Source: Candidatus Omnitrophota bacterium (GTDB taxonomy: Bacteria; Omnitrophota; Gorgyraeia; Duberdicusellales; Duberdicusellaceae). From it: 64,000 nucleotides of DNA. Each line of letters opens with the position of its first letter. Within the stretch, counting starts at the first letter, position 1. The stretch is from contig JAGGWS010000038.1 in the NCBI GenBank assembly GCA_021163425.1, positions 10,418 through 74,417 on the forward strand, read 5' to 3'. Position numbers and translations under genes: made by a program. The notes beneath the pieces are model-generated. The model did not search any database. It was not told where the DNA came from and saw only the letters and a list, made by a program, of their open reading frames with translations. Below, piece after piece: positions 13,312 to 62,322 of the stretch.

Positions 13312-14190
13312 TCAAAATTTAATCTCTGGCACTTGAAGAGGGTCTTTTTTAAGAGTGAATTTTAAAAAACTCTCACTACCCAATCTATATACAAAAACTC
13401 CTGAAGCTTTAGAATCTAAAAATCCTCTCAGAGAAGTATTTTCTTCTGGTTTTAGAAAGTCTTTTTTATACTCTGAGCCTGAAGACTTATTATAAGGTAA
13501 ATTATACAACTTAGCTAAATTAAACGTTCCCTCTAAGTCCAGATGAATATTTTCCAAAAGAACATAAGAGTCGGAAAAATAAATCCAGGGGAAACTTCCC
13601 CGGAAATTCAAAAAAACCCTCTCAATCTTATAATCTTCTAAATTAGCTCCGAAGGCTTCTAATTTACCCTCTATTAAAAGATTATCTAATCTTCCCTGTA
13701 GGGTGATTTTACCCCGAAAGTCTCCTTGAAAAGGAAAATCTTCTACCCCTAAAAATTTATTTAATTTTCTTAAACTCATTCCTTTTATATCTATATCTAA
13801 TTTTAAAACCGGCTGAGGAGAAAAATCGATATTACCACTAATAATAAATCCTTCTCCTCTGAAATAGCTAAGAGTTAAGACCCCTCCTTTATAGATAATG
13901 TAGGAAGAAAAATTCTTAGTTTTACGCTGATTAAGGGATATTCTTATAGGGTTAAGATTAAAAATAAATAAGTCTTTGTCTTTTTTAACTCTTCCTTGAA
14001 AACTAAGGCTGAGTTTCTTCCCTAAGAAAATTAAATCATCCCACTCACCCTTACAAGAATAAAAAGAATCTTCTTTTCTCAAAAAAAGAGTTGGAGAAAC
14101 TTCTTCCTGGAAAGTTCTCTTCTCAGGGTAAGAAAAACCTGAATTAAAAAGACCCACAAATATAAAAAAAAATACTAAAAATCTGGTCAT
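13312..14190 (-). CDS. secreted hypothetical protein
   Basis: N-terminal signal peptide ([20 protein letters not shown]). No recognisable catalytic motifs. Lies between the mla genes and clpC. Confidence 0.4.
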
Positions 14191-16631
14191 TCAAAAACAA
14201 GAGAATCGTTCTTTCTCTTGGCAATTATCTTTCTCCTCTCAGAAGAAGTTTTTAATTTAAACCTCCCCGAGATTATTTCCTCAGCTAAAGGGTCTTCTAA
14301 AAATCTCTGAATTACTCTCTTCAAAGGTCGGGCTCCAAAAATAGGGTCAAAACCTTTTTCAATAAAAAACTCCCTAGCTTGAGGAGTGAGCTCTATTTCT
14401 ATGCCCTGCTCATCCAATCTTTTATTTACATAACCTATCTCAATATCCACAATCTTCTCTAAATCCTCTTTAAGTAAAGGCCTAAAAACAATAATTTCAT
14501 CCAATCTATTGAGAAACTCAGGCTTGAAAGTCCTCTTTACCTCCTCTAAGAGTTTGTTTTTCATCTCCTCATAACTTATCTCTTCTTTAACTACAGTAAA
14601 TCCTAAAGACCCTTTCTTCTTTAAAATATCCACACCTACATTAGAAGTCATAATCAGAATGGTATTCCTGAAGTCAACCTTTCTTCCAAAACTATCAGTT
14701 AACCTTCCATCCTCTAATATCTGAAGTAATAAATTAAAGACATCAGGATGAGCTTTCTCAATCTCATCTAAAAGAACTACTGAATAAGGCCTTCTCCTTA
14801 CCCGTTCAGTGAGCTGGCCTCCTTCTTCGTAACCTACATAGCCGGGAGGAGCTCCAATCAATCTGGAAACATTAAACTTCTCCATATATTCGGACATATC
14901 TAACTGGACAAGAGCCTCTTCGTCTCCAAACATAAATTCAGCTAAGACCCTGGCTAAAAGAGTCTTTCCTACTCCAGTAGGACCCATAAAGATAAAAGAA
15001 CCAATAGGCCGTTTAGGATCCTTTATCCCTGCCCGGGAACGCCTTAAAGCTCTGGCTATTGACTTTATAGCTTCCCCTTGACCTACTACTCGTTTAGAAA
15101 GTTCTTCCTCAGCCTTAAGAAGTTTTTCTGACTCTTTCTCCTCCAGCTTAAATATAGGAATACCCGTCCATTGAGAAACAAGCTTAGCAATATCTTCAGC
15201 AGTTACTTTAGGTAAGACTTTATCTCGAGACTTAATCCAATCTTTACGGATTGTTTCCAGTTTAAGCCTTAATTCTCTCTCCTGGTCTCTTAATTTTGCT
15301 GCCTTTTCAAAATCTTGTTGTCTAATAAAAGCTTCCTTTTCTTTGGTTATATCCTGCAGCTTCCTCTCTATCTCTTTTATCTCAGAAGGAGTAGTAAGAA
15401 CCTGGAGTCTAGCCCGGGAACCGGCTTCATCTATCAAATCCACTGCTTTATCAGGCAGGAATCTTCCTGAAATATACCTATCTGAAAGCCTGGCTGCAGC
15501 TTCTAAGGCTTCGTCAGTAAATTTAACCCGGTGGTGAGCTTCGTATCTATCGCGTAATCCTTTTAAAATTTCTATAGTCTCTTCTACAGTAGGAGGCTCA
15601 ACTATTATCGGCTGAAACCTTCTTTCTAAAGCGGCATCTTTCTCAATATGTTTTCTGTATTCATCTAAGGTAGTGGCTCCTATACACTGGATTTCTCCCC
15701 GGGACAAAGCAGGTTTCAGAATATTAGAAGCGTCAATTGCTCCTTCAGCTGCTCCTGCTCCTACTAAGGTATGAAGTTCATCAATAAACATTATTACATC
15801 TTTTGAACGCTTAATCTCTTCCATTACTGCTTTAATCCTTTCCTCAAATTGACCTCTGTATTTTGTTCCTGCTATCATCAAGGCTAAATCTAAAACTACA
15901 ATCCTCTTGTTCCTCAAAACTTCAGGAACATTCCCCGAAACAATTGCCTGAGCTAAACCTTCTACAATAGCAGTCTTACCTACCCCGGCCTCCCCTAATA
16001 ACACAGGATTGTTCTTGGTCCGGCGGGATAAAACCTGAATAACTCTTTCTATCTCAACTTTTCTCCCAATAACTGGGTCTAATTTACCCTCTCTGGCTAA
16101 GCCAGTAAGGTCCCTCCCAAAAGAATCTAAAGCCGGGGTTTTCTTAGGCGAAGAACTGCTTTGAGAATAAGGGAAATCTCCTGAAGATGAATACCCTCCT
16201 CCTAAAAGGTCAAGAATAACCCTTCTTACTTTGTTAATATCTAAACCTAAGTTTACCAATACTTGCGAAGCTATACCCTCCTGTTCTCTGAATAATCCTA
16301 AAAGAAGGTGCTCAGTGCCAATATAGTTGTGCCCCATACTTCTTGCTTCCTCAGCAGCTAACTCTAAGACTTTTTTAGCCCGGGGAGTAAAAGGAAGTTC
16401 TCCCAACACCTGCGTTTGACCTCCGGGATGGAGAAATTTCTCCACTTCTTCCCTAATTCTTTCTAAATCCATACCTAAATTCTGTAAAACAACGCTAGCT
16501 ACTCCTTCCTGTTCAGAGATTACCCCTAAAAGAATGTGCTCAGTACCTATATAATCATGATTAAAACGCCGAGCATGTTCTTTAGCTGAAAGTAAAACTC
16601 TCCTTGCTCTCTCAGTGAATCTATTAAACAT
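14187..16631 (-). CDS. clpC: ATP-dependent Clp protease ATP-binding subunit ClpC
   Basis: Two Clp_N repeats, two AAA+ modules ([17 protein letters not shown]) and a UVR motif between them ([16 protein letters not shown]). Confidence 0.9.
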
Positions 16632-16649
16632 TGCCCCTCCTCCTTCAAA

Positions 16650-17711
16650 TTAACTTATATATACTCTTTCTAACTTTTCTCTTAAAAGCTCAGCTCTTAT
16701 AGAATCCCTTTCCTGGTGAGAAAGATTCTTTTTATATATTTTTTGTAAGTGCGCCGGTTGAATCATAATAAATAAATAATTAAGGAGTTCAGTATTTAAA
16801 TTTTTTATTATACCTAAGTCCATTCCCAAACGCAATAAAGAAAGATAGGACAAAGTCTCACTACTGCTAATAAGCCGGCAGTTTTTAAGAATTCCCAAAG
16901 CTCTACAAATCTTATCTTCTAAAGAAAGCCTGTAGCGGGAAAGCATATACTCCCGAGCCTGAAGTTCCTGGCTTTTAAGTTGTTTTATTATCCCTGAAAG
17001 ATTACTTAGAATTTCAGCTTCACTTAAACCTAAAGTCAGTTGATTGGAAACCTGAAAAAAATTACCTATAGCCTGGGTTCCTTCTCCAAAAAAACCTCGG
17101 GTGGTAAAGGAGAGTTTACTGATTAATTCTAAAACCCTATTAATCCTTTTAGTCATAATTAATCCCGGCAAATGTAACATACAGGAAGCTCGCATACCTG
17201 TACCTACATTAGTAGGGCAAGAGGTTAAAAATCCTAAATTAAAAGAAAAAGCAAAATTTAGGGTCCTGGAAAATTCCTCGTCTGCCCGGTTAGCAATCTC
17301 CCAGGTATCCTGCAAGTCAAAACCGGACTTTATTACCTGAATTCTTAAATGGTCTTCTTCATTTACCATAATTGAACAAACCTCATCTTTTCTTAAAAGG
17401 AGAGCCTTATCTTGACTATAATTAGCATACTCCTGACTTACTAAATGGCGTTCTAAAAGAAATTCTCTGTCTAAGGGAGAAAGCTCAGCCCCCTTAAGAA
17501 ACTCAAAACCCCTTAAAAAACTACTCTTTTCTTGAGCTTCTCTTATCTTCTCAAACAGTTTCTTTACTTGAAGAGGCTTCATTCTTTTGGGAAAAGGAAT
17601 ATCTACTAAATTTCTGGCTAATCTAATCCGGGAAGAAATAATGATATTAGCATCAGGACCTTTACCCTTAAACCACTCTCCGGGCTTATTGAGTAACTCC
17701 TCCAAGATCAT
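16650..17711 (-). CDS. mcsB: protein arginine kinase McsB
   Basis: ATP:guanido phosphotransferase-like core. Located between mcsA and clpC. Confidence 0.8.
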   Translation of the reverse strand: MILEELLNKPGEWFKGKGPDANIIISSRIRLARNLVDIPFPKRMKPLQVKKLFEKIREAQEKSSFLRGFEFLKGAELSPLDREFLLERHLVSQEYANYSQDKALLLRKDEVCSIMVNEEDHLRIQVIKSGFDLQDTWEIANRADEEFSRTLNFAFSFNLGFLTSCPTNVGTGMRASCMLHLPGLIMTKRINRVLELISKLSFTTRGFFGEGTQAIGNFFQVSNQLTLGLSEAEILSNLSGIIKQLKSQELQAREYMLSRYRLSLEDKICRALGILKNCRLISSSETLSYLSLLRLGMDLGIIKNLNTELLNYLFIMIQPAHLQKIYKKNLSHQERDSIRAELLREKLERVYIS

Positions 17712-51858: not shown

Positions 51859-51930
51859 TTTACACGTTTATACGTTTACACGTTCACACGTTTCTACGTT
51901 CACACGTTTCTACGTTTTTACGTTCATACG
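51859..51930. repeat. tandem array of about 9 copies of the 8-bp unit YACGTTYW
   Basis: tacacgtt tatacgtt tacacgtt cacacgtt tctacgtt cacacgtt tctacgtt tttacgtt catacgtt, read off directly. Confidence 0.8.
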
Positions 51931-51966
51931 TTTTAACATATTATTTTGAAAACATTTTGTCAAGTT
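51931..51966. repeat. palindromic element copy with degenerate left arm (TTTAACA) and conserved spacer/right arm
   Basis: ttttaacatattattttgaaaacatttTGTCAAGTT, 7 nt after the stop of the Cas4-like nuclease gene and abutting the octamer array. Confidence 0.6.
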
Positions 51967-53128: not shown

Positions 53129-53140
53129 CTTACTTAAAAA

Positions 53141-53455
53141 GTCCTCTTTAGCAAAGTCTTCTCTTTACCACCACAATACCTTCTTTTACAAAATAATTTT
53201 TCTTATCTTCAGTAATATTAAAACGGTCAATAATTGCCTTCTTTATTTTACAACTTCCTTCTATCTCTGTAAAGTCCATAATAATAGAATCAATAATCTG
53301 GCTTTCTTTTATTATTACCCCTCTTCCTATAATAGAGTTTTTATATAAGAATTTTCAACCTGACAGCCTTCACTAATTAAAGAATTAACAAAAGGATAAA
53401 GCCTTTCTCTCCCGCCTCCAGCCATTACCATAGCTAAAACTTTATTTTCCATCTT
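53141..53455 (-). pseudogene. glgC: decayed, internally deleted and frameshifted remnant of glucose-1-phosphate adenylyltransferase
   Basis: Minus-strand ATG at 53455 gives MENKVLAMVMAGGGRERLYPF (GlgC N-terminal nucleotide-binding loop). About 20 aa later it joins LbH-domain-like sequence ...SLISEGCQVENSYI and reaches a stop. A +2 frame continues NSIIGRGVIIKESQIIDSIIM...KKAIIDRFNITEDKKNYFVKEGIVVVKRRLC, matching the GlgC C-terminus. About 300 aa of the middle are missing. Confidence 0.45.
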
Positions 53456-53465
53456 ACAATCTACA

Positions 53466-53604
53466 TTTTACGTTCACACGTTCATACGTTTACACGTTTA
53501 CACGTTTTTACGTTTACACGTTTTTACGTTTACACGTTTTCACGTTTACACGTTCATACGTTTTTACGTTCATACGTTTACACGTTCATACGTTTACACG
53601 TTTT
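53466..53604. repeat. tandem array of about 17 copies of the 8-bp unit YACGTTYW
   Basis: tacgttca cacgttca tacgttta cacgttta cacgtttt tacgttta cacgtttt ... Continuous 8-bp periodicity over about 140 bp, immediately upstream of the glgC remnant start. Confidence 0.85.
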
Positions 53605-53653: not shown

Positions 53654-56600
53654 TTATCTCTCTATAACAGTCTCTAACCTGTGTTTTACTGCCCTTACTC
53701 CTGAATATTCTGCCTCGGTTATTACTTCATAAACATCCGAACGGGTAGTAATAAAAGGGCAAATCAATTTAAAATTATTAATCTTTTGAAACTCAGTTAA
53801 GCCTAAAGCTGTGGTTTCTAACAAATCTCCTATACCCAGCCTACGTTTGCTTCTTTCTCCAAAGGGCCTCTGTGAAATTATTCCAGAATTAGAGGGTAAT
53901 AGAAGATTCAAAATCTCTTTTCTTGCTGTATTTATATTTATCCTCCCACTGACTATAAATTCTGGCTCCAATATAAAATTTATAATCTTAAGAGGTCCGT
54001 CTTCTTCATTTCTCACTTTAATTTCTAAACTACCTCCAGACTCAATCTCAATATTTCCGTAATAAAGGCAACCCTTATGAAAATAAAAAGGGCCTAAATA
54101 GTCAAAAGTATCTGCCTGCTCGGTTTTTACTGCTATACTTACAGAAGAACTATCTTCCTCGGCTAAAATTTTAAGAAAATAACTCCCTTGAGGAATATTA
54201 GAAAATCTCCACAATCCCCATTCCCCTCTGCGAAAAGAAAAGAAACTATCGTCTTCTTCTTTAAAATTGCCTTCTACAAAAGAAGATATCCCTAAATGCT
54301 TTACAAAAGAAGTAAATCTATCTGAAAGAAGAGCTATATCCCTTAAACTAAATCTCTTCCAGGGAAGACTGGAGGGAATTTTCTCGGCATAGCCAATATT
54401 TATAAGAGGCTGATTTAAAACGACTTGTTCTCTTACATTATGATAAAAAACCTCCAGAGTTTTGGGGTCAATCTCTTTTATCCCTGAGTTATCATTATGC
54501 TCTGAAGGTGTAGCTTTTGCCTCAGCTTCAGAAAAAAACCAGCCATCGAATATTCCATCTCCATCAGCATCAGTAAGAAGAGTGGGATCTGAACGCTCTA
54601 AACTTACATAATTTCTTATCTGAGAAGAAGTATATTCTACTATATCCACAATTTCTCCCTGAGGATTCTTTAAAGCAATAGTGGCTGAGCTGTCAGGGAT
54701 AATATCATCACACCCTTCTATCTTACCGCTAAACTCAAGTTGAACTGCTTTCGTTCCCCAGCTCTCCTGGAAAGAAATCCCATTACTTCTTAAATAAGAA
54801 GGAGAGCTTCGGTCATCTTTATCTATAGCCAGGATTAAATGTTCATAGGGCCTGATTTTTGTGCCTTGAGGAATAATTGCCGGCCAGCCTAAGACCGCTT
54901 TTTTTTCTTGAGTTACCTCTATACTGAAATTGCCTATATCTATCTCTCGGGGAGTAATATTCAGAATTTCGATGAATTCGGCATCGGGTTCTTGAGAAAC
55001 AACTATTTTTTTAAAAGTAGAAACTTCAGTAAGAGAATTATTCTGAATTTTTATTAATAAATCTCCATCTATATATACCGGGTAAGGAAAAACCATCCCA
55101 TCTCTAACCCCCTTTAAAGATCTTCCGGAAATAACTACATCTCCAATATAACCTCCTGTTGTATTAGCAAAAAATTTTATATAGAAATAACCCCTTCTCC
55201 CTACTGAAAAAACCCATCTTCCCTCACCCTCAATTCCACTGGCTAAATCTTTATTCTCGTAATATCCACCCTTCCAGACCCAGCTTCCTCCAGGATTCTG
55301 AGATTTCTCTACCAGAAATTCTAAAGAAGGCTTAATCATCACCTCGTTTATCACTAAAGATTCTCTTCCTCTTAAAGAGGTATGAACCAGCCCTTCTCTA
55401 TTTTCAGGACTTACAAGCTCTATATATTCCAGAGCACAATCTCTATCTTCAAAAGGTTTTATCCTAAATTCTAATTCACCTCCCTCTACCTTAACAGGCA
55501 AATACAACCCCTCTCCATTGTAAACATCACAATCTTCTATATCCTGAACTGAAACATAACCTATACCTAAATCCTCAAAAGGAGAATAAAAAAAGCAAAA
55601 ATATTCTCCATCGGGGATATTTAAGTTCTGGAATTTAAAAGTAGAAGGGGCTCCTCCCCGGGGAGCATAAAAATAATTCCCGCTCTTTCTAAAACTTCCT
55701 CCTGAAGAAGAAACAGGCTTTATCCTCTTATAAAACTTGTCTAAAACAGTCTGGGATAAATCTTTATCCTGAAAATCAATAAAATTAGCTGCTTTTTGGA
55801 AAGGAAACCTTACTCCTGAGCTCAAAAAACCCATAAGAACATCCTGAAAAGAAGCAGATAAAGCAATCCTCCTCCTTCCAAAACTATCTAATTCCTTATC
55901 TTTAGAATAGACCGTAAAATAATTCCTGAATCTTAAACCTGAAGGTAAAGTTAAAAACTCCCGAGTCTCCTCGGGAGCTAAAAATAACCTATCGTCACCA
56001 AAACCTTCCTCATCAGGCTCATCTATTCCTTCATCTTTTTCATCAACAACTCCATCTAAATCATTATCAATCCCATCAGAAATTAATATCAAATTATCAG
56101 AATCATCATCGTAATCTTCCAATCCTGGTTTCTCATCAGAACCCCGCCTTAACCTTATTAAAGAAGTGCTTTTAGAAATTCCCAGAAAAGAAAATAGAGA
56201 ATTTATATTAAGTTCAGAAAGGTCCAAGCCATAGCGGAAAGAGCTTTCTCCACAATAATTCAAATTAAGCTTGGAAGCCTCATCTAAAATTTGAACACCA
56301 AATCGGCCGTAAAGCCTTCCCTCGAAATTTTTAACTTCAAAGTATCTACTTTCTTTTATCCCATCCTTATCTAAATCTAAATCTTCACCTTTCAGCTGAG
56401 TGTAAAAAGAATCTTCAAGGCTATCAGAAAAATTTTCTTTTTTATCCTGCTTCAAGAGTTCTCTGCCCAGAGTTAAACCTGCCTCTGCTAAATACTGAGC
56501 TTTAACATTATCTAAGTAGATGCGGGAATATCTTACTTCATAAAGGCTAAAAAGAAGAAGAGAAAACCCAGTAATAGCAAGAACAGAGAGAACAGTTATA

Positions 56601-56662
56601 GTAATAAGAAGTGCTTGAGCCTTTCTAATCACTTTTTTCCTCAAAAGGTAAGTAAGTAACAA
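53654..56662 (-). CDS. giant GspK-like minor pseudopilin / secreted multidomain protein
   Basis: N-terminal pilin-like hydrophobic segment without Glu5 (KAQALLITITVLSVLAITGF), as in GspK. Contains a GspK-like DEASKLNLNY motif and an acidic Ca-binding-like repeat (DGIDNDLDGVVDEKDEGIDEPDEEG). 1002 aa versus about 330 aa for canonical GspK. Confidence 0.45.
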   Translation of the reverse strand: MLLTYLLRKKVIRKAQALLITITVLSVLAITGFSLLLFSLYEVRYSRIYLDNVKAQYLAEAGLTLGRELLKQDKKENFSDSLEDSFYTQLKGEDLDLDKDGIKESRYFEVKNFEGRLYGRFGVQILDEASKLNLNYCGESSFRYGLDLSELNINSLFSFLGISKSTSLIRLRRGSDEKPGLEDYDDDSDNLILISDGIDNDLDGVVDEKDEGIDEPDEEGFGDDRLFLAPEETREFLTLPSGLRFRNYFTVYSKDKELDSFGRRRIALSASFQDVLMGFLSSGVRFPFQKAANFIDFQDKDLSQTVLDKFYKRIKPVSSSGGSFRKSGNYFYAPRGGAPSTFKFQNLNIPDGEYFCFFYSPFEDLGIGYVSVQDIEDCDVYNGEGLYLPVKVEGGELEFRIKPFEDRDCALEYIELVSPENREGLVHTSLRGRESLVINEVMIKPSLEFLVEKSQNPGGSWVWKGGYYENKDLASGIEGEGRWVFSVGRRGYFYIKFFANTTGGYIGDVVISGRSLKGVRDGMVFPYPVYIDGDLLIKIQNNSLTEVSTFKKIVVSQEPDAEFIEILNITPREIDIGNFSIEVTQEKKAVLGWPAIIPQGTKIRPYEHLILAIDKDDRSSPSYLRSNGISFQESWGTKAVQLEFSGKIEGCDDIIPDSSATIALKNPQGEIVDIVEYTSSQIRNYVSLERSDPTLLTDADGDGIFDGWFFSEAEAKATPSEHNDNSGIKEIDPKTLEVFYHNVREQVVLNQPLINIGYAEKIPSSLPWKRFSLRDIALLSDRFTSFVKHLGISSFVEGNFKEEDDSFFSFRRGEWGLWRFSNIPQGSYFLKILAEEDSSSVSIAVKTEQADTFDYLGPFYFHKGCLYYGNIEIESGGSLEIKVRNEEDGPLKIINFILEPEFIVSGRININTARKEILNLLLPSNSGIISQRPFGERSKRRLGIGDLLETTALGLTEFQKINNFKLICPFITTRSDVYEVITEAEYSGVRAVKHRLETVIER

Positions 56663-57014
56663 ATTCTTCTGAAAGCTTAGGAGTAGTTGAAGAATTAGAT
56701 TCTACCTTCAGGATAAGTTTTTTTAAATTCACTCCTTCTAAGACTTCCTCTTCTCCTAAAGAAATCTGCCAATCGAAATTTCCTTCTTTGCCTTCTGCTT
56801 CTTCAACTATATTATAAGTCTTTAACTCTTCTAACTTCTTCTTTGCTAAGAAAGCAGTATCCATCAATAGTTTTGATAATCTAAGTTGTTTCAGAGCCAG
56901 AGGAAACATATAGAAAACAGAGAGAAGCCCTCCAGCCAGGATAGCTATAGCAACCAAAATCTCAATAAGGGTAAAACTCCGCTGGCTCCTAAATCTTATC
57001 TTCCCCATCCTCAT
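56625..57014 (-). CDS. prepilin-type N-terminal domain pseudopilin (GspI-like)
   Basis: RSFTLIEILVAIAILAGG class III signal/methylation motif. 129 aa. Confidence 0.6.
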   Translation of the reverse strand: MRMGKIRFRSQRSFTLIEILVAIAILAGGLLSVFYMFPLALKQLRLSKLLMDTAFLAKKKLEELKTYNIVEEAEGKEGNFDWQISLGEEEVLEGVNLKKLILKVESNSSTTPKLSEEFVTYLPFEEKSD

Positions 57015-57072
57015 CTCATCCGATAAAGGCCTTAAGTAAATGGGCTAGGATAAACTCTCTAAAGAGAACTCC

Positions 57073-58101
57073 CTAACGAATTAAACTACCCATAGAAAAT
57101 ATAGGAAAGAATAAACCAACTACGATAAAACCCACTATCACCCCCATAAATACAATTAGAAGAGGTTCAAGTAAAGAAATAATTCCCGATAAAGAAGCAG
57201 TAACATCCTCCTCATAATCCTGAGCTATTTCTAAAAATACTGAAGAAAGTCTTCCTGAATCTTCAGCCACTTCTACAATCTTAACTAAAGAACCTGGGAA
57301 AATCTTTGCTTCTTCCATACTTTCCGAAAGGCTACTACCCGATTCAATCTTCTCTATTAAAAAATCTATAGACTCTTTAAGAAGAGGGTCTACTACCACT
57401 TCTCTAGTGGCTAATAAAGATTTAACTAAAGGGACCCCTGAAGAAAGCATCACTCCCAAAGAATGAGAAAATCTCTCAATTGCTATATCTTTTAAAAACT
57501 TACCTATTACAGGGAGTTTCCATCTATAAATATTAATCTTGTAAGCTCCGGCAGGAGTTCTTTTAATTAAATTATAACCAGCTATCATAAGCACTACTAA
57601 CAGAATAAAAAGATAACTCCACCGGGCTAAAAACTTAGAAGTATTTATCAAAAATAAAGTAAGTGGCGGAAGTTCTCCTCCTAAGTCTTTAAATATATTA
57701 GTTAAAGTAGGAACGACAAAAATCATTAACACCGCCAATACAATAACTGCAGTCACCAGAATAAGTATTGGGTACATTAAAGAAGTGATTATCTTCTGCT
57801 TAAGCCTCCGACTGCGCTGAAGAAAATCCGAAAGCTCCCGAAGGGCAGGTGCTAATTTTCCGCTAATTTCTCCTGCCTTCACCATATTTATATAAATTTG
57901 AGGGAAAATATTTTTGTGATGTTCTAAAGCTTCTGAAAGAGGCTCACCTTCCTGAATATCTTCAACCAATCTTTTAACTACTTTCTTAATTCGTGAAGGG
58001 TCCATCTGCTCATAAAGAGTCTCTAAACTCTTTAATATAGGTATGCCTGATTTCATAAGCATAGAAAAGCTTCTGGTAAAATCTATTACATCTTTTCTCA
58101 T
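57073..58101 (-). CDS. type II secretion / type IV pilus platform protein (GspF/PilC family)
   Basis: Two T2SF domains separated by transmembrane helices (…MLMKSGIPILKSLE…, …MLSSGVPLVKSL…). Confidence 0.8.
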   Translation of the reverse strand: MRKDVIDFTRSFSMLMKSGIPILKSLETLYEQMDPSRIKKVVKRLVEDIQEGEPLSEALEHHKNIFPQIYINMVKAGEISGKLAPALRELSDFLQRSRRLKQKIITSLMYPILILVTAVIVLAVLMIFVVPTLTNIFKDLGGELPPLTLFLINTSKFLARWSYLFILLVVLMIAGYNLIKRTPAGAYKINIYRWKLPVIGKFLKDIAIERFSHSLGVMLSSGVPLVKSLLATREVVVDPLLKESIDFLIEKIESGSSLSESMEEAKIFPGSLVKIVEVAEDSGRLSSVFLEIAQDYEEDVTASLSGIISLLEPLLIVFMGVIVGFIVVGLFFPIFSMGSLIR

Positions 58102-58658
58102 CTTCCCACAGGAATATTTATTAGTTCCTGATAATTCTCTCTACGGCCTTTATAACTTAAAGTAAGCTCTGTCTTGACTGCTAAAGGTAATTCTTTATAA
58201 GAATTTTCCCATTTTTCTCCATCAAAAAAACTAAAGTTCAGACTCTCTATACTGGAGCTTAATACCTCTTCTTTATCAAAAGTATTGAAGTTAAAATCAC
58301 ATTTTGATTCTCTTCTTACTAAACTTTTTTTCTCAGGAAGAAAAATATAGCCTATCTCCCTAAGTCCTTCGGAATCAGGATAAACAAAAAATAAAGCCTG
58401 CTTATCTCCTTTAAATATTTCTCCTTCCCCCCGGATAATCTCTTCATTTGCTCTTAGAGCAGAAGAAAGTTCTCTGGATATCACCCAGAATACCCTCTTT
58501 AGATTCTGGTATCTCTGGGCTAAAACTTGAGCCTCCTGATAAGAAAGAAGGGCACTTCTAAAAATTGTGCCCACAATAGTTATCACCGCAACAAAAATCC
58601 CTATAGCAATTAGAACCTCTATTAAGGTGAAACTAATCTTTCTCAGAAAAATACTCAT
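58098..58658 (-). CDS. prepilin-type pseudopilin (GspJ/GspH-like)
   Basis: MSIFLRKISFTLIEVLIAIGIF prepilin motif. The track start at 58679 is a TTG; the ATG at 58658 is the likely start. Confidence 0.6.
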   Translation of the reverse strand: MSIFLRKISFTLIEVLIAIGIFVAVITIVGTIFRSALLSYQEAQVLAQRYQNLKRVFWVISRELSSALRANEEIIRGEGEIFKGDKQALFFVYPDSEGLREIGYIFLPEKKSLVRRESKCDFNFNTFDKEEVLSSSIESLNFSFFDGEKWENSYKELPLAVKTELTLSYKGRRENYQELINIPVGR

Positions 58659-58667
58659 AGCTAAGGA

Positions 58668-58695
58668 TATAACTTTCAAAACATTTTGTCAAATT
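58668..58695. repeat. partial palindromic element (conserved spacer plus right arm TGTCAAATT)
   Basis: tataactttcaaaacatttTGTCAAATT between the stop of the 510-aa gene (58700) and the start of the pseudopilin gene (58658). The left arm is not recognisable. Confidence 0.45.
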
Positions 58696-58699
58696 ACGC

Positions 58700-60232
58700 T
58701 TATTTTCTCTTAAAGAAAAGTATTTTCTGGAGTTTTTCTATAAAGGTCTCTTCTTTCACAGTCCAACTCCATTGAGCAGGGGTGGGGTCTTCCTCATAGA
58801 GAGAAATTAACCCATCTCCATCTATATCTAAGCCAGCTTTGACTTTGAATAAGTGAACTCCCAAACTTAGACCAGAAAAACTCACGCTTTTTTCTTTCTT
58901 CCAGGAAGACCACTCCGAACCATCTAAAGAATAACTGAACAAACACCCCTCACGGGAAGCCTGATAATAAAATGTAGCTTCTTTCTCAGGAGTTAAACTG
59001 GAAGGACCACTTATTATTCGAGTATCAGGAGCCAATACTACTAAGTCAATATCATCAGAAAATACAGGAGATACATTTCCAGCATAATCTTCAAACTTAA
59101 TATAAACTGTCTTCTTCCCGGATATATCCGGCTCTTTCAGAAGCCAATCCTCTATTAAAGCCTTGAATTCCAGCGGATTATCCATCTCCGTATCAAAAAC
59201 ACCATCATTGGATATGTAGATATACTTTATTCCACTTACCTCATCAGAAGCTGTAATTTTTAGAGTAACATAAGGAGAATTAGTTACAGGGTCATCATTA
59301 TTTATCACCACACTACCCTGAGGGGAATGAGTATCTACAATAAAGCTCCAGGCTTTGCTAACCTGGTTTCCTATGTTGTCCTCTGCCTTTATTAAAACTA
59401 TATTTTCTCCATCGGGCAAACTTCCCTTATAGGAATAAATATTCTTATCCTCAGCAAACTTTCCAGAGACTTCTTCTCCATTCAGGAAAAACTGTAAACT
59501 ACTTAAGTTGACCCCTGAATGTAAATCTTCTACCTTACAACTTATCTCCACAAAGCTCTGGTTAATAAGCTCAGAAACAGCCGGGGTTAACTCAGTTACA
59601 GAAGGATGAGTAGTATCTACCCAAATCTCAAAGCTTAGAGGTTGCCCCCAGACTTTTCCTCCTCCATAAGGGGCTACATAAAAGATATGTTTTCCATCAG
59701 AGAGGCTGTCCTGAGGATACTGATAAAAAGAAAACTCTGTATCTACCTCCCCATCAGGAAGACTATCTAAAGAGAAACTAAACCCTTTTATTAAAACAGG
59801 TGGGTTAATAACAACAATCCAGTAAAAATAGGGGTCATTATCTTTCTGCCATACTGACGGAGAAATTTCAAAGCCACCCAGATGAGTTTTTGCACGAAGT
59901 TCAGCTATTTCATAGAGCACTTCTCCTACCAGGACAGGCCAGTAACAACTAAAATTAATCCCTATCTGAGTACTTGCAACTTCTACAGGCACTGAAAACA
60001 ACTGTCCGACAACAAAGTAAGTAAGGCGGCGCTCACTAAAAGAAGCAAAACCCAGACTGGTGCCTATACTTATAAGCTCAATCTCATAATTAGAAGAGGC
60101 AGCCTGCTCAGCATATACCCCTGATACAATATAAAGGATAAAGAATAAAATAATAATTTGAAATTTGAAATTTGAAATTTGAAATTTATTACTTTGAAAT
60201 TTGAAATTTGAAATTTGAAATTTATTACTCAT
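58700..60232 (-). CDS. secreted protein of unknown function with a repeat-encoded N-terminus
   Basis: The N-terminus MSNKFQISNFKFQ-SNKFQISNFKFQ is encoded by a 36-bp tandem duplication, then a hydrophobic signal-like segment IIILFFILYIVSGVYA-EQ. The ATG overlaps the TGA of the upstream ATPase gene (ATGA). Confidence 0.45.
   Translation of the reverse strand: MSNKFQISNFKFQSNKFQISNFKFQIIILFFILYIVSGVYAEQAASSNYEIELISIGTSLGFASFSERRLTYFVVGQLFSVPVEVASTQIGINFSCYWPVLVGEVLYEIAELRAKTHLGGFEISPSVWQKDNDPYFYWIVVINPPVLIKGFSFSLDSLPDGEVDTEFSFYQYPQDSLSDGKHIFYVAPYGGGKVWGQPLSFEIWVDTTHPSVTELTPAVSELINQSFVEISCKVEDLHSGVNLSSLQFFLNGEEVSGKFAEDKNIYSYKGSLPDGENIVLIKAEDNIGNQVSKAWSFIVDTHSPQGSVVINNDDPVTNSPYVTLKITASDEVSGIKYIYISNDGVFDTEMDNPLEFKALIEDWLLKEPDISGKKTVYIKFEDYAGNVSPVFSDDIDLVVLAPDTRIISGPSSLTPEKEATFYYQASREGCLFSYSLDGSEWSSWKKEKSVSFSGLSLGVHLFKVKAGLDIDGDGLISLYEEDPTPAQWSWTVKEETFIEKLQKILFFKRK
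60156..60227. repeat. perfect 36-bp tandem duplication, each unit containing (TTTGAAA)x4 + TTTATTAC
   Basis: tttgaaatttgaaatttgaaatttgaaatttattac occurs twice back-to-back. It encodes the first 24 residues of the 58700-60232 protein. Confidence 0.85.
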
Positions 60233-61881
60233 CCTCCCAACACCCTTAAAACTTCCTGAAGAGAAGTTTTAGCTTCTACTATTTTGGAGAAGCCATCTTC
60301 TTTCAAGGTTCTAAATCCTTTCTTCTGAGCATAAACTCTAATCTCATCGGAAGAGGCTTTCTCCACAATTAAATTGTCAAAACCTGAATCAAGCTCTAAC
60401 ACCTCAAATATAGCTACTCTGCCCTTAAAACCTGTCCGGCTACATTCCTGACATCCTGAAGGTTCAAAAATACCCACCTGTTTGTCAGAAGGTAAAGGCT
60501 CCAATCCCAGAGATTTCCTCAATTGACTCAAAGATATACTCCTTTCTCTTTTACAGTTAGAACATAAAACCCTCACTAATCTCTGGGCTATAACCCCTTT
60601 TAAAGAAGAAGCTACCAGAAATGGTTCAAGGCCCATATCTATAAGTCTTGTTACTGCTGAAGGGGCATCGTTGGTATGAAGGGTTGATAAAACTAAGTGT
60701 CCGGTTAGACTTGCCTGAATAGCAATCTGGGCTGTTTCTCTATCTCTAATTTCGCCAACCATCACAATATCAGGGTCATGCCTTAAAATTGAACGCAACC
60801 CGGAAGCAAAAGTAAGCCCTACAGCAGGATTAACCTGAATCTGTTTGGCAAAATCTAAATGATATTCTACAGGGTCTTCAATAGTAATTATGTTTTTTTC
60901 CACACTCCTTATTTTTAAAAGAGAGGCATAGAGAGTGGTGGTTTTTCCTGAACCAGTAGGACCGGTAACTAAGATTATTCCTGCGGTCTGCTTTAAAAGC
61001 TGTTTATATTTAGTTAAGTTTTCCTTAGAAAAACCTAACTCCTCAAGGGAAAATAAACCTTTCTCTCTCTCTAAAAGCCTTAAAACAATACTCTCTCCTT
61101 CTACCAGAGGGATAACTGAGATTCTTACATCAATAGGCCGATTGGAAACTTGAACCTGAAATCTTCCATCCTGAGGCCGTCTCCTCTCAGCAATATCTAA
61201 GTTTGCCATAATTTTCAAGCGGGCAATTATGGCATTATAAAGATAAAGAGGAGGCGCTTTAAAAGAATGAAGAACCCCATCAATCCTGAAACGGATACTT
61301 ACCTTATCTCCTCGGGGCTCAATATGGATATCTGAGGCTCTTAAATTCACTGCTTCAGCAATCAATAAGTCTACCAGCTTTATTACTGAAGGCTTCTCTT
61401 TCTGGACTTTAACTTCTTCTAACTGGCTTTCTTCTGAGGGGGCAAAAAATGTCTTAATAAACGAATCTAAATTATCCTTATTAACAAGGTATAACTTAAT
61501 AAACAACCCAGTATGAAACCGCAACTCTTCTAAAGGCTCCAGTTTGAAGGGGTCAGATAAGCCCACTTTCAAAATATTTCCTTCCTGCTGAAGAGGAATG
61601 ATCCTGAATTTAGTTATAAACTCCTGAGGAACCAGTTCTAAAACCTCCTTGGCGGGAATAAAATCCTTCAAGGAAAAAATCTCTATATGAAGTTTGCTCG
61701 ACAAAAAATTTATTAAAGTTTCTTCGTCCATAAGCCCCAGGGTTCTTATAGAATCGGCTAAAGTAGTCTGACTCCTCTCTTTTTCTATCTCTAAAGTTAT
61801 TGCCTGTTCCTGAGTGATAAGGCCTTCGGAAACTAAACTCTTAACCAGAGAATCTCTCAACTCTCTTTTTTCTAACTCCAT
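60229..61881 (-). CDS. type II secretion / type IV pilus assembly ATPase (GspE/PilB family)
   Basis: N-terminal T2SE_N-like domain, Walker A GPTGSGKTTT, Asp/His boxes and a tetracysteine motif (CSNCK...CQEC). Confidence 0.9.
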   Translation of the reverse strand: MELEKRELRDSLVKSLVSEGLITQEQAITLEIEKERSQTTLADSIRTLGLMDEETLINFLSSKLHIEIFSLKDFIPAKEVLELVPQEFITKFRIIPLQQEGNILKVGLSDPFKLEPLEELRFHTGLFIKLYLVNKDNLDSFIKTFFAPSEESQLEEVKVQKEKPSVIKLVDLLIAEAVNLRASDIHIEPRGDKVSIRFRIDGVLHSFKAPPLYLYNAIIARLKIMANLDIAERRRPQDGRFQVQVSNRPIDVRISVIPLVEGESIVLRLLEREKGLFSLEELGFSKENLTKYKQLLKQTAGIILVTGPTGSGKTTTLYASLLKIRSVEKNIITIEDPVEYHLDFAKQIQVNPAVGLTFASGLRSILRHDPDIVMVGEIRDRETAQIAIQASLTGHLVLSTLHTNDAPSAVTRLIDMGLEPFLVASSLKGVIAQRLVRVLCSNCKRERSISLSQLRKSLGLEPLPSDKQVGIFEPSGCQECSRTGFKGRVAIFEVLELDSGFDNLIVEKASSDEIRVYAQKKGFRTLKEDGFSKIVEAKTSLQEVLRVLGG

Positions 61882-62128: not shown

Positions 62129-62173
62129 ACTAAAAGTATAGGCCGTCTCTTCTCCTGCTCAACGTCGGCAGAT

Positions 62174-62322
62174 TCACACGTTCACACGTTCTCACGTTCA
62201 CACGTTCATACGTTCTCACATTCACACGTTCACACGTTCTCACGTTCATACGTTCTCACGTTCATACGTTCTCACGTTCATACGTTCACACGTTCACACG
62301 TTTTTACATTTATACGTTCTAC
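62174..62322. repeat. tandem array of about 19 copies of the 8-bp unit YACGTTYW
   Basis: cacgttca cacgttct cacgttca cacgttca tacgttct cacattca ... The longest array in the window. Lies in the 800-bp non-coding region between the PilB-like gene and hup. Confidence 0.85.

What the first reader, a model, noticed from the sequence alone, without database searches (positions are those of the whole stretch)
53654..61881. Non-canonical type II secretion / type IV pilus-like cluster: ATPase - repeat-headed secreted protein - pseudopilin - platform - pseudopilin - 1002-aa GspK-like giant
The gene order, in minus-strand transcription order, is E(ATPase)-X-J(like)-F(platform)-I(like)-K(giant). No secretin, GspG major pseudopilin, GspC/L/M or prepilin peptidase lies in the window, although the genome is clearly diderm (mla, lol). 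Both pseudopilins have Ser rather than Gly at the -1 position of the prepilin motif (..RSFTLIEIL.., ..KISFTLIEVL..). The K-like protein carries the GspK hallmarks (Glu-less pilin-like N-terminus, DEASKLNLN-like motif) but is three times normal length, with an acidic DxDxDG-like Ca-binding repeat, which suggests a pilus-tip adhesin or effector fused to the tip pseudopilin. This may be a reduced or novel fibre or secretion apparatus.
Basis: partly seen in the sequence, partly recalled or inferred. Interest (0 to 1): 0.6.

Follow-up and report, generated by a model that had tools for sequence, protein, structure and literature searches.

The report
Omnitrophota pilus/secretion operon with giant GspK
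This is a real, selectively maintained six-gene operon from an uncultivated Omnitrophota bacterium that encodes the motor, platform and tip subunits of a type II secretion / type IV pilus-like fibre, whose tip subunit carries about 600 extra residues of binding-type domains; it is a rearranged copy of a system that in most relatives sits next to its outer-membrane pore, so it is a lineage-specific variant and not a new kind of machine.

Summary
Six co-oriented, overlapping minus-strand genes occupy 53654-61881: a GspE/PilB-type ATPase, X (a signal-peptide protein made of four Ig-like domains), a GspJ-like pseudopilin, a short GspF/PilC platform, a GspI-like pseudopilin, and a giant GspK-like protein. 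The giant is 992 aa from its likely GTG start, not 1002.

The window holds no secretin, major pilin, GspL/M/C or prepilin peptidase.

The reading as a reduced or novel apparatus is only partly supported. K homologues with a lamin-tail domain occur in about 63 Omnitrophota species genomes. K is usually followed by X, then a PilM/PilN-like (GspL-like) protein, a second bitopic protein, and one or two secretins. Of 28 loci with at least 8 kb downstream of K, 20 carry a secretin.

Only the window's own clade has the compact E-X-J-F-I-K order. Whether that clade keeps a secretin elsewhere could not be tested.

All six genes are under purifying selection (dN/dS 0.09-0.30).

The most likely function is the motor plus priming/tip complex of a type IV filament. 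K would be a modular tip pseudopilin carrying binding domains, and X a tip-associated or secreted Ig-rod partner.

Verdict: new variant of a known kind, moderate interest.

The parts
60229..61881 (-). E: GspE/PilB-type assembly ATPase, 550 aa. Has an N-terminal MshEN/T2SSE_N domain, Walker A GPTGSGKTT, and two CxxC pairs.
   Evidence: Pfam T2SSE 6e-136 and MshEN 4e-16. TIGR02533 scores 578.8 bits (cut-off 630) and TIGR02538 scores 564 bits (cut-off 675). 94% aa identity and dN/dS 0.09 against L089.
58700..60232 (-). X: Sec-exported protein of 510 aa. It has a signal peptide (..VYA|EQ), a disordered segment at residues 35-104, four tandem Ig-like beta-sandwich domains at 105-495 with an EF-hand/dockerin-like DIDGDGLISLYEED loop, and a conserved C-terminal tail (consensus ILFWRR). 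It is found only in Omnitrophota.
   Evidence: 76 homologues, nearly all named ones from Omnitrophota. Alignment A2. AF2 model with pLDDT above 90 for residues 105-495. Foldseek hits are adhesin stalks such as GhpA, SiiE and cadherins. X lies next to K in 24 of 39 informative loci, or next to J.
58098..58679 (-). J-like minor pseudopilin, 193 aa ORF. The likely start is Met8. The leader ends ..RKIS|FTLIEVL (Ser at -1, Glu at +5).
   Evidence: TIGR01711 gspJ 3.3e-9 (36.8 bits, cut-off 64.85), Pfam T2SSJ 0.0028, N_methyl 8e-4. Orthologues in L005 and L008 hit T2SSJ.
57073..58101 (-). F: GspF/PilC platform protein, 342 aa, with two T2SSF domains. It lacks the N-terminal ~60 aa of canonical GspF. 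This is a family-wide trait (339-342 aa in relatives).
   Evidence: Pfam T2SSF 2.3e-58. TIGR02120 scores 325 bits, matching profile positions 63-401 of 401. Relatives are 339-342 aa.
56625..57014 (-). I-like minor pseudopilin, 129 aa. The leader is MRMGKIRFRSQRS|FTLIEIL (Ser at -1, Glu at +5).
   Evidence: N_methyl 27.2 bits (cut-off 21.2), TIGR02532 above cut-off, weak XpsI, PilV and GspI matches.
53654..56632 (-). K: giant GspK-family tip pseudopilin, 992 aa from the GTG at 56632 (the ORF runs up to a TTG at 56662). Layout in 1002-aa ORF numbering: pilin helix and sheet at 1-135, alpha region with a disordered acidic insert at 174-224, beta-sandwich modules at about 306-900 including LTD at 556-678, HhH GRININTA at about 905-970, and a terminal beta-hairpin at 977-1001.
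   Evidence: NF037980 GspK 6e-8 (residues 17-135) and LTD 2e-8. 14/19 relatives hit T2SSK, 19/19 hit LTD, 6/19 hit HHH_3. AF2 model pLDDT 75.5, pTM 0.68. CBM6-like match at TM 0.6. Start codon context. dN/dS 0.15.
62173..62320 (.). Upstream tandem array of about 18 copies of an 8-bp unit (TTYACACG on the + strand), roughly 300 bp 5' of E.
   Evidence: TRF and pattern search with 33 matches against 0 expected. Absent from close relatives L009 and L010.
53470..53603 (.). Downstream tandem array of about 17 copies of the same 8-bp unit in the same orientation, immediately 3' of K.
   Evidence: TRF and pattern search. Aligning with L009 shows the array is an insertion relative to that relative.
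53133..53452 (-). Remnant (pseudogene) of the NTP_transferase gene that follows K intact in relatives. About 870 bp are deleted internally.
   Evidence: tblastn and blastn of L089 against the window. The intact 408-aa gene is present in L003 and L089-L091.

Best explanation
The six genes form one translationally coupled operon. It encodes the cytoplasmic and inner-membrane engine and the priming/tip complex of an Omnitrophota-specific type IV filament system of the T2SS / type IV pilus superfamily.

Proposed mechanism:
1. E, a hexameric GspE/PilB-type ATPase, drives F, the platform, to insert pilin subunits into a growing helical fibre.
2. I, J and K are cleaved by a prepilin peptidase encoded elsewhere. 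They form the GspI-J-K-type trimer that nucleates the fibre and ends up at its tip.
3. K is a genuine GspK homologue. Its pilin domain is closed by its own C-terminal beta-hairpin, the T2SS-like 'in cis' arrangement. About 600 residues of beta-sandwich modules (LTD, CBM6-like, prealbumin-like) are inserted into it. The fibre tip therefore carries a built-in binding head, most likely for a surface glycan or polymer of a host or prey cell, or for a cargo protein.
4. X, a Sec-exported rod of four Ig-like domains with a conserved floppy C-terminal peptide, is always encoded beside K or J. It most likely docks on the tip complex, in the gene position that PilY1 and MshQ hold in other systems, or it is the system's dedicated exported adhesin.

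The envelope-spanning parts (a GspL/PilMN-like protein, a second bitopic protein, and secretins), the major pilin and the prepilin peptidase are encoded next to these genes in most Omnitrophota. In this lineage they have been separated by rearrangement and are presumed to lie elsewhere in the genome.

Shown here: gene identities, conservation, synteny in relatives, purifying selection, domain architecture.

Inferred: tip location of K, what the head binds, the role of X, and the existence of the unlinked parts.
For: The K family has 35 homologues, and the source names that exist are Omnitrophota or Ratteibacteria. T2SSK is hit in 14/19 members and LTD in 19/19. Conserved N- and C-terminal GspK hallmarks are visible in the alignment. 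The AF2 model has an N-terminal helix and sheet, internal beta-sandwiches, and a C-terminal HhH plus hairpin.

The same six genes in the same order occur at 59% and ~90% K identity in other MAGs.

More distant relatives carry orthologues of all six genes contiguous with a PilN-domain PilM/N-like protein, a second bitopic protein and a secretin: F-I-K-M-N-D-E-T-J-X in L005, M-N-D-E-J-X in L008, and K-X-M-N-D-D in many others.

dN/dS is 0.09-0.30 for all six genes.

Start and stop codons overlap for E/X, J/F and I/K.

X is a high-confidence four-Ig rod that resembles adhesin stalks.

Published framework: the GspK/PilK sheet is completed in cis in T2SS or in trans by the last ~10 residues of PilY1/MshQ-type proteins encoded just downstream, and CpaL is a large pilin-like protein with a dispensable middle region (PMC13533445). 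T2SS-like loci are reported as conserved across Omnitrophota (bioRxiv 10.1101/2023.11.21.568195).
Against: - No secretin, GspL/M-like protein, major pilin or prepilin peptidase was found for the window's genome or its clade. The 64-kb window and the sequence held for the relative's 72-kb contig (10 kb on each side of the cassette) lack them.
- The I, J and K matches to curated Gsp models are all below the family cut-offs. The window K itself does not hit Pfam T2SSK at E<=0.1.
- A profile of K with the insert removed reaches the solved GspK homologue XcpX only at E=0.61.
- No complex modelling could be done, so the I-J-K trimer and any X docking remain inferences.
- Ser at -1 is a poorly documented substrate for prepilin peptidases. 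The cited literature gives Gly or Ala (PMC3244431).
- The window strain shows local decay around the operon: a pseudogene and repeat arrays.
Confidence: 0.7

Rival explanations
1. Secretion piston (classical T2SS function). The fibre stays periplasmic as an endopilus. K's inserted LTD and CBM-like modules, and perhaps X, bind folded cargo and push it through the secretin. Candidate cargo is the large fibre-like or giant proteins encoded next to the cassette in relatives.
For: - K appears to supply its terminal strands in cis, as T2SS GspK does, judged from the secondary structure against the framework.
- No PilT-type retraction ATPase is in the cluster or the window.
- GIGTTSP-repeat / Peptidase_S74 fibre proteins lie directly upstream of E in the window's closest relatives, and after X or the secretin in L008 and L021.
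- Published reports place T2SS-like loci next to Omnitrophota giant genes.
Against: - Fibre genes adjoin the cassette in only 6 of 93 loci held. They are absent from the window itself.
- No GspC was recognised.
- A tip subunit of about 110 kDa is unprecedented for a periplasmic endopilus.
- This rival overlaps the best explanation, because the machine is the same and only its output differs.
Confidence: 0.3
2. A truly reduced, secretin-less apparatus. In the window's clade the PilMN-like, N and secretin genes were lost when the operon was rearranged. E, F, I, J, K and X now work as a minimal inner-membrane fibre machine, or use a different outer-membrane conduit.
For: - The compact order occurs only in this clade, and no M, N or D gene lies within the flanks seen in six contigs.
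- None of the 120 listed Omnitrophota-type secretins carries a locus tag of the annotated MAGs of this clade.
Against: - That listing is demonstrably incomplete. The L008 secretin (1232 aa) and the secretins of several other genomes that encode X are also missing from it, so absence from it carries no weight.
- MAGs are incomplete.
- Unlinked secretin operons are the norm in type IV pilus systems (established knowledge, e.g. pilMNOPQ versus pilBCD in Pseudomonas).
- The organism is diderm, with mlaD/E/F and a lolCDE-type ABC transporter in the window, so a surface fibre needs an outer-membrane pore.
Confidence: 0.12
3. DNA-uptake (competence) pilus. The tip subunit K would bind extracellular DNA through its LTD and helix-hairpin-helix elements, as proposed for large tip pilins of competence pili.
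For: - K carries an HHH_3/ComEA-like GRININTA motif. Its best PDB sequence match is to tandem HhH repeats of an endonuclease/exonuclease/phosphatase-domain protein.
- From my own recollection, not tested here, LTD domains occur in bacterial extracellular nucleases.
- Thermus ComZ is a precedent for a large tip pilin proposed as a DNA receptor (PMC6561018, listed).
Against: - The HhH element is a structural part of every GspK and is not evidence of DNA binding.
- No ComEA, ComEC or DprA was seen beside the cluster in any locus.
- The other inserted modules look like carbohydrate-binding or adhesin folds.
Confidence: 0.08
4. Decaying remnant. The operon is a rearranged fragment that is no longer functional.
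For: - The flanks differ from close relatives. The upstream fibre genes are lost, the downstream NTP_transferase is reduced to a pseudogene, and 8-bp repeat arrays sit at both junctions.
Against: - All six ORFs are intact.
- dN/dS is 0.09-0.30 against a relative at dS of about 0.3.
- The order is conserved down to 59% K identity.
Confidence: 0.03

Closest known systems
Type II secretion system (Gsp/Pul/Eps/Xcp), especially the GspI-GspJ-GspK tip complex with GspE and GspF
   Same: It has a GspE-type ATPase with zinc-binding CxxC pairs, a GspF platform with two T2SSF domains, and I-, J- and K-like pseudopilins with class III signal peptides. K lacks Glu5, has the D-E-x-x-K-L-N-L-N motif and a C-terminal HhH, and appears to provide its last beta-strands in cis. 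Relatives have a secretin and a GspL-like PilM/PilN fusion.
   Different: - The gene order is E-X-J-F-I-K instead of C-D-E-F-G-H-I-J-K-L-M.
- No G, H, C, L, M, D or O gene lies in cis.
- K is three times the normal size because of inserted LTD and CBM-like modules.
- An extra conserved Ig-rod protein, X, is present.
- F lacks its N-terminal ~60 aa.
- All curated equivalog cut-offs are missed.
Type IVa pilus priming complex: minor pilins FimU-PilV-PilW-PilX plus PilY1 (Pseudomonas, Myxococcus), and MshD-O-P plus MshQ (Vibrio MSHA pilus)
   Same: A large, non-pilin, Sec-exported protein is encoded immediately beside the GspK-family minor pilin. It has a conserved extreme C-terminal peptide and a calcium-loop-like motif. 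The tip complex doubles as primer and adhesin.
   Different: X has no PilY1/PilC beta-propeller (no Pfam hit) and is much smaller. K seems to close its own sheet, so strand donation by X is not required. No PilT is present. Docking of X on the tip has not been tested.
CpaL/TadG of Tad pili and other modular or oversized pilins (Thermus ComZ, Streptococcus sanguinis modular pilins)
   Same: A pilin-like N-terminal domain, a large functional middle region, and a C-terminal strand that returns to complete the pilin sheet. The adhesive or binding module is built into a tip pilin.
   Different: K is a GspK-family protein and not a TadG-family protein. Its inserted modules (LTD, CBM6-like, prealbumin-like) are different. 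The surrounding machinery is GspE/F-type, not TadA/B/C.
T2SS-like loci reported next to giant genes in Omnitrophota (West-Roberts et al. 2023 preprint; 2026 complete-genome preprint)
   Same: Same phylum, and the same general statement of conserved gspD/E/F-containing loci with many class III signal-peptide proteins. In L008 the M-N-D-E-J-X locus is followed directly by a 3008-aa protein.
   Different: In the passages read, those papers describe loci with rcpC/Tad-type genes and a rotamase. They do not describe the LTD-bearing GspK, protein X or the compact E-X-J-F-I-K operon. The window has no giant gene.

Membership tests
Type II secretion system / type IV filament superfamily | GspE/PilB-family assembly ATPase | tested here: met
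   Pfam T2SSE 6e-136 (453 bits, cut-off 24.9). The GspE and PilB equivalog models score 579 and 564 bits, both slightly under their cut-offs, so subtype assignment stays open.
Type II secretion system / type IV filament superfamily | GspF/PilC-family polytopic platform protein | tested here: met
   Pfam T2SSF 2.3e-58 in two stretches. TIGR02120 scores 325 bits (cut-off 424) and the N-terminal 62 profile positions are unmatched.
Type II secretion system / type IV filament superfamily | Pilin-like subunits with a class III signal peptide (short basic leader, small residue at -1, hydrophobic helix, Glu5) | tested here: met
   The I-like protein passes N_methyl and TIGR02532. The J-like protein has the motif but sits just under the cut-off. 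Both have Ser at -1 and Glu5.
Type II secretion system / type IV filament superfamily | Outer-membrane secretin (in diderms) | tested here: not met
   None in the 64-kb window. Present next to orthologous genes in 20 of 28 relatives with enough flank. The rest of this genome could not be searched.
Type II secretion system / type IV filament superfamily | Major (pseudo)pilin of GspG/PilA type and a prepilin peptidase (Peptidase_A24) | tested here: not met
   Not in the window: the motif scan and Pfam scans found neither. Genome-wide presence is not testable with these tools.
GspK / PilX minor pseudopilin family (Pfam PF03934, NCBIfam NF037980) | Match to the curated family models at their cut-offs | tested here: not met
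   NF037980 scores 32.5 bits against a cut-off of 130 and covers only the N-terminal third. The window protein has no PF03934 hit at E<=0.1. 14 of 19 close homologues hit PF03934 at E<=0.01, the best at 2.3e-8.
GspK / PilX minor pseudopilin family (Pfam PF03934, NCBIfam NF037980) | Class III N-terminus lacking Glu5, a D-E-x-x-K/R-h-N-h-N strand motif, and a C-terminal HhH region followed by terminal beta-strands | tested here: met
   Read from alignment A1: K[GA]|QAL.. with no Glu5, DEASKLNLN, GRININTA, and an ..IRxVIER end. There is a weak colinear match to XcpX (5vtm_X) at the same two motifs.
GspJ (TIGR01711 / PF11612) | Match at the curated cut-off | tested here: not met
   36.8 bits against 64.85, and 18.4 against 28. 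GspJ is nevertheless the best-scoring family.
GspI (TIGR01707) | Match at the curated cut-off | tested here: not met
   19.7 bits against 44.35. XpsI, PilV and GspI all match weakly.
PilY1/PilC tip adhesins (considered for X) | C-terminal PilY1/PilC beta-propeller domain | tested here: not met
   Pfam gave only weak Big_13 and DUF7743 hits. The model is four Ig-like sandwiches with no propeller.
PilY1/PilC tip adhesins (considered for X) | The extreme C-terminal ~10 residues add a beta-strand to the GspK-family pilin | not testable with these tools
   X has a conserved C-terminal ILFWRR tail that is low-confidence in the monomer model. No multimer prediction was available.
Verru_Chthon cassette (TIGR02596-02600) | Match to the cassette protein B, C or D models at their cut-offs | tested here: not met
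   Protein C scores 21.5 bits against 256.5 and protein B 18.3 against 51.4. There is no hit to protein D for K.

The most novel reading that the evidence does not exclude
K and X together would form a previously undescribed kind of fibre tip. K is a GspK whose alpha-domain has been expanded into a ~600-residue multi-module binding head. X is a dedicated Ig-rod partner that docks through its conserved C-terminal peptide. Ultra-small Omnitrophota cells would use this tip to grapple host or prey cells. In the window's clade the machine would have been streamlined to a six-gene operon working without its ancestral PilMN-like, N and secretin partners.
Probability: 0.15. Interest if true: 0.65.

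Novelty: new variant of a known kind. Interest (0 to 1): 0.42.

Why it matters
Omnitrophota are abundant, uncultivated, ultra-small bacteria suspected of living on or preying upon other cells, and how they attach is unknown. Across roughly 60 species in the phylum, one type IV filament system has a tip subunit with built-in LTD and carbohydrate-binding-like modules and a dedicated Ig-rod partner. That gives a concrete candidate for the attachment or export device. It also adds a GspK-family case to the recent finding that tip complexes are licensed by a terminal beta-strand supplied in cis or in trans.

K and X could serve as markers for this system. The window's compact operon is mainly of evolutionary interest as an example of how such loci are reshuffled.

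Tried and rejected
- Exact look-up of the 1002-aa ORF failed because public calls start 10 codons later.
- Search for the clade's missing secretin. A homologue search with a relative's secretin returned 140 hits, none attributable to the compact-cassette MAGs. The list also omits known secretins such as L008's, so it is uninformative. Three divergent secretins were traced to unrelated samples.
- Profile searches of PDB sequences with K, and with K minus its insert, gave no significant GspK hit.
- c-di-GMP binding by E's N-terminus was rejected. The NCBIfam motif model scores 15.4 bits against a cut-off of 38, and by my reading of the sequence the Arg/Gly positions of the motif are not conserved.
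- Membership of the Verru_Chthon cassette was rejected.
- Promoter and terminator scans gave counts no higher than in shuffled sequence. Rfam found nothing in the window. No tRNA genes are present.
- The idea that X's N-terminal repeat is functional was rejected. It is a strain-specific 36-bp duplication in the signal-peptide n-region.

Full report
**What is there**

The last 10 kb of the window carries six co-oriented minus-strand ORFs with overlapping or nearly abutting ends.
- E (60229-61881) is an unambiguous GspE/PilB-type ATPase. Pfam T2SSE gives 6e-136, with an MshEN/T2SSE_N domain. The GspE and PilB equivalog models score 579 and 564 bits, both just below cut-off.
- F (57073-58101) is a GspF/PilC platform with two T2SSF domains. 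It lacks the first ~60 residues of canonical GspF.
- The 129-aa and 193-aa proteins carry class III signal peptides with Ser at -1 and Glu at +5. Their best but sub-threshold matches are GspI/XpsI/PilV and GspJ respectively.
- The giant ORF matches the NCBIfam GspK model over residues 17-135 (6e-8) and Pfam LTD over residues 556-678. Its real start is almost certainly the GTG at 56632, eight bases before the stop of the I gene and preceded by GAGGA. That gives 992 aa, as in public gene calls.
- X (58700-60232) has only weak Ig-like hits.

**Absence of other components from the window**

Pfam scans of about 40 other window ORFs found only housekeeping genes. These include MlaD/E/F and a LolCDE-type ABC transporter, so the organism is diderm. 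tblastn with a relative's secretin, PilMN-like and second bitopic proteins found nothing. A six-frame prepilin-motif scan found only the two pseudopilins.

**Origin**

The exact E protein occurs on ENA metagenome contigs. Every homologue of K and nearly every homologue of X that a source names comes from Candidatus Omnitrophota or a neighbouring candidate phylum. The closest species genome in the GTDB-based collection is a Guaymas Basin Omnitrophota MAG, QNCG01, at 90% K identity.

**K is a GspK homologue with a large insertion**

- Alignment of 19 family members shows a conserved class III N-terminus (K-[GA]|Q-A-L...) without Glu5. It also shows the strand motif DEASK(L/I/V)N(L/I)N, a C-terminal GRININTA helix-hairpin-helix, and a conserved terminal ...IRxVIER.
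- Each member was scanned separately. 14 of 19 hit Pfam T2SSK, 19 of 19 hit LTD, and 6 of 19 hit HHH_3.
- The AlphaFold2 model (pLDDT 75.5, pTM 0.68) has a long N-terminal helix and a small sheet at residues 1-135. An alpha region follows, with a disordered acidic loop at 174-224. A string of beta-sandwich domains spans about 306-900, then come HhH helices and a final beta-hairpin at 977-1001.
- Foldseek recognises a CBM6-like sandwich (TM about 0.6). The other top hits are spurious global alignments.
- A profile of K with the insert removed finds the solved GspK homologue XcpX only weakly (E=0.61), but colinearly at the two hallmark motifs.
- The acidic 'DxDxDG' segment is an indel present in two subclades.
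- K is thus a family member by motifs and by its relatives, but it is not an equivalog by curated thresholds.

**X**

- X has 76 homologues of about 500 aa, and almost all of the named ones are from Omnitrophota.
- The alignment shows a Sec signal peptide and a variable Ser/Gly-rich segment. Highly conserved domains follow, with an EF-hand/dockerin-like D-x-N-G-D-G-x-I-x-x-D-E-E-D loop. The protein ends in a conserved extreme C-terminus (consensus ILFWRR).
- The model gives four tandem Ig-like sandwiches at pLDDT above 90, a disordered N-terminal segment and a floppy C-terminal tail.
- The best structural neighbours are stalks of bacterial adhesins such as GhpA and SiiE, and cadherins.
- The N-terminal SNKFQISNFKFQ x2 is an exact 36-bp duplication in the signal peptide's n-region. 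It is shorter in relatives.

**Context in relatives, which is the decisive evidence**

- A scan of one genome per species returned 79 loci. I labelled their ORFs by BLASTP against the window proteins and their orthologues.
- 63 loci carry a full-size K. Of 39 with at least 3 kb downstream, the next recognisable gene is X in 24 and a 470-530-aa PilM/PilN-like protein in 7. Of 28 with at least 8 kb downstream, 20 contain a secretin, often two in tandem.
- Representative orders are F-I-K-(MerR)-M-N-D-E-TPR-J-X (L005), M-N-D-E-J-X (L008), F-I-J-K-X-M-D-D and K-X-M-N-D-D.
- M passes the Pfam PilN cut-off at its C-terminus and resembles a GspL-like PilM-PilN fusion. D passes Secretin at 6.6e-40.
- All six window proteins have orthologues in L005 at 32-51% identity.
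- The window genes therefore belong to a phylum-wide, secretin-containing type IV filament system.
- The compact E-X-J-F-I-K order is confined to the window's clade: the window, L009, L003/L010 and L089-L091. The locus tags of the fifth member imply the same order.
- Position -1 of the pseudopilins is Gly, Ala or Ser across the family. The literature read here names Gly or Ala as prepilin peptidase sites (PMC3244431). That Ser can also be processed is my recollection and was not verified.

**Functionality**

Against a relative at dS of about 0.3, dN/dS is 0.09 (E), 0.14 (F), 0.15 (K), 0.17 (J), 0.20 (I) and 0.30 (X). The operon is under purifying selection, with the exported protein X evolving fastest.

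**Mechanism**

By homology, E and F drive assembly. I, J and K form the priming/tip complex.

A recent study (PMC13533445) reports three relevant findings:
- The last strand of the GspK/PilK sheet is supplied in cis in T2SS.
- Tad CpaL is a large pilin-like protein whose middle region is dispensable for assembly.

K fits the cis class, since it has two terminal strands, and it has a CpaL-like topology. X occupies the PilY1/MshQ gene position and has a conserved terminal peptide but no propeller. I therefore propose a fibre whose tip carries K's binding head, with X as a tip partner or exported adhesin.

Whether the output is an external adhesive pilus or a periplasmic secretion piston is unresolved. 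Points favouring secretion:
- No PilT is present.
- K supplies its terminal strand in cis.
- GIGTTSP-repeat / Peptidase_S74 fibre proteins lie next to the cassette in the closest relatives and in two other architectures.
- T2SS-like loci near Omnitrophota giant genes have been reported.

Points favouring an adhesive pilus: the adhesin-like folds of K's insert and of X.

**What could not be settled**

**Novelty**

The presence of T2SS-like loci in Omnitrophota is published in general terms, and NCBI already labels some K homologues as GspK or LTD-containing. Four features are not described in the papers I could read:
- an LTD/CBM-laden GspK conserved across the phylum;
- its obligate Ig-rod neighbour X;
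- the short F;
- the clade-specific compact operon.

This is a new variant of a known kind, not a new category.

Noticed in passing
window 51859-51933, 53470-53603, 62173-62320: Three tandem arrays of an 8-bp unit, TTYACACG on the + strand, all in the same orientation, with 9, ~17 and ~18 copies. All are intergenic and all lie in the last 12 kb of the window. The two long arrays bracket the operon as direct repeats and sit exactly where synteny with close relatives breaks. They are present in the same-strain ENA contig L001 but absent from L009 and L010. The pattern search gave 33 matches against 0 expected. Their function or origin is unknown; candidates are slippage-prone spacers, protein-binding arrays or rearrangement scars.
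   Followed up: partly
window 53133-53452 (-): The 408-aa NTP_transferase gene that follows K intact in relatives (L003, L089-L091) is reduced here to a pseudogene. About 870 bp are deleted internally. The 41-aa and 43-aa ORFs are its remnants.
   Followed up: yes
L089 3-4261; L009 2-1177; L090 and L091 5' ends; L008 11594-20722; L021 18931-23052: Large proteins with repeated NVGIGTTSP motifs and a C-terminal Peptidase_S74 (tail-spike chaperone-like) domain lie directly upstream of E in the window's closest relatives. In other architectures they lie directly after X or the secretin. The window has no such gene (no tblastn hit). They are possible cargo or fibre partners of the system.
   Followed up: partly
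window 57073-58101 (-), and F orthologues in L003 and L005: The platform protein of this system is consistently 339-342 aa and lacks the N-terminal ~60 residues of GspF/PilC. The PilC of a separate canonical pilus locus in L054 is 404 aa.
   Followed up: partly
L016, L022, L031, L032, L035, L036, L047, L054, L057, L058 (downstream of K-X-M-N): Many species carry two secretin genes in tandem, one of about 830-970 aa and one of about 500 aa, at the end of the locus. The short ones correspond to the group at ~52-55% identity in the secretin search.
   Followed up: no
L054 6-7692: One Omnitrophota-like genome has a complete canonical type IV pilus locus immediately upstream of its K-X-M-D-D locus. 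It comprises PilB, a 404-aa PilC, a 149-aa PilA/GspG-like pilin, two minor pilins, a PilX_N-like 398-aa protein, a PilM/N fusion, and PilO- and PilP-like proteins. These genomes therefore hold several type IV filament systems that might share pilins or the peptidase.
   Followed up: no
window 60157-60229: An exact 36-bp duplication, built from a 7-bp AATTTGA sub-repeat, produces the doubled SNKFQISNFKFQ in the n-region of X's signal peptide. L009 has a shorter run of the 7-mer.
   Followed up: yes
window 14187-17711 (-): A ClpC-type AAA+ chaperone (with Clp_N and UVR domains) lies next to an ATP:guanido phosphotransferase (McsB-like protein arginine kinase). To my knowledge this pairing is best known from Gram-positive bacteria, yet here it occurs in a diderm genome.
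   Followed up: no
window 13312-14190 (-): A 292-aa ORF immediately upstream of (5' to) the MlaE-MlaF-MlaD genes has no Pfam family at E<=0.01.
   Followed up: no
L006 8662-12328: A second, smaller K-like paralogue family (~770 aa, HHH_3/T2SSK hits, no LTD) follows three small pilin-like genes in an H-I-J-K-like order. It is followed by rotamase and SurA_N genes, which recalls the rotamase-containing T2SS-like locus described near Omnitrophota giant genes.
   Followed up: no
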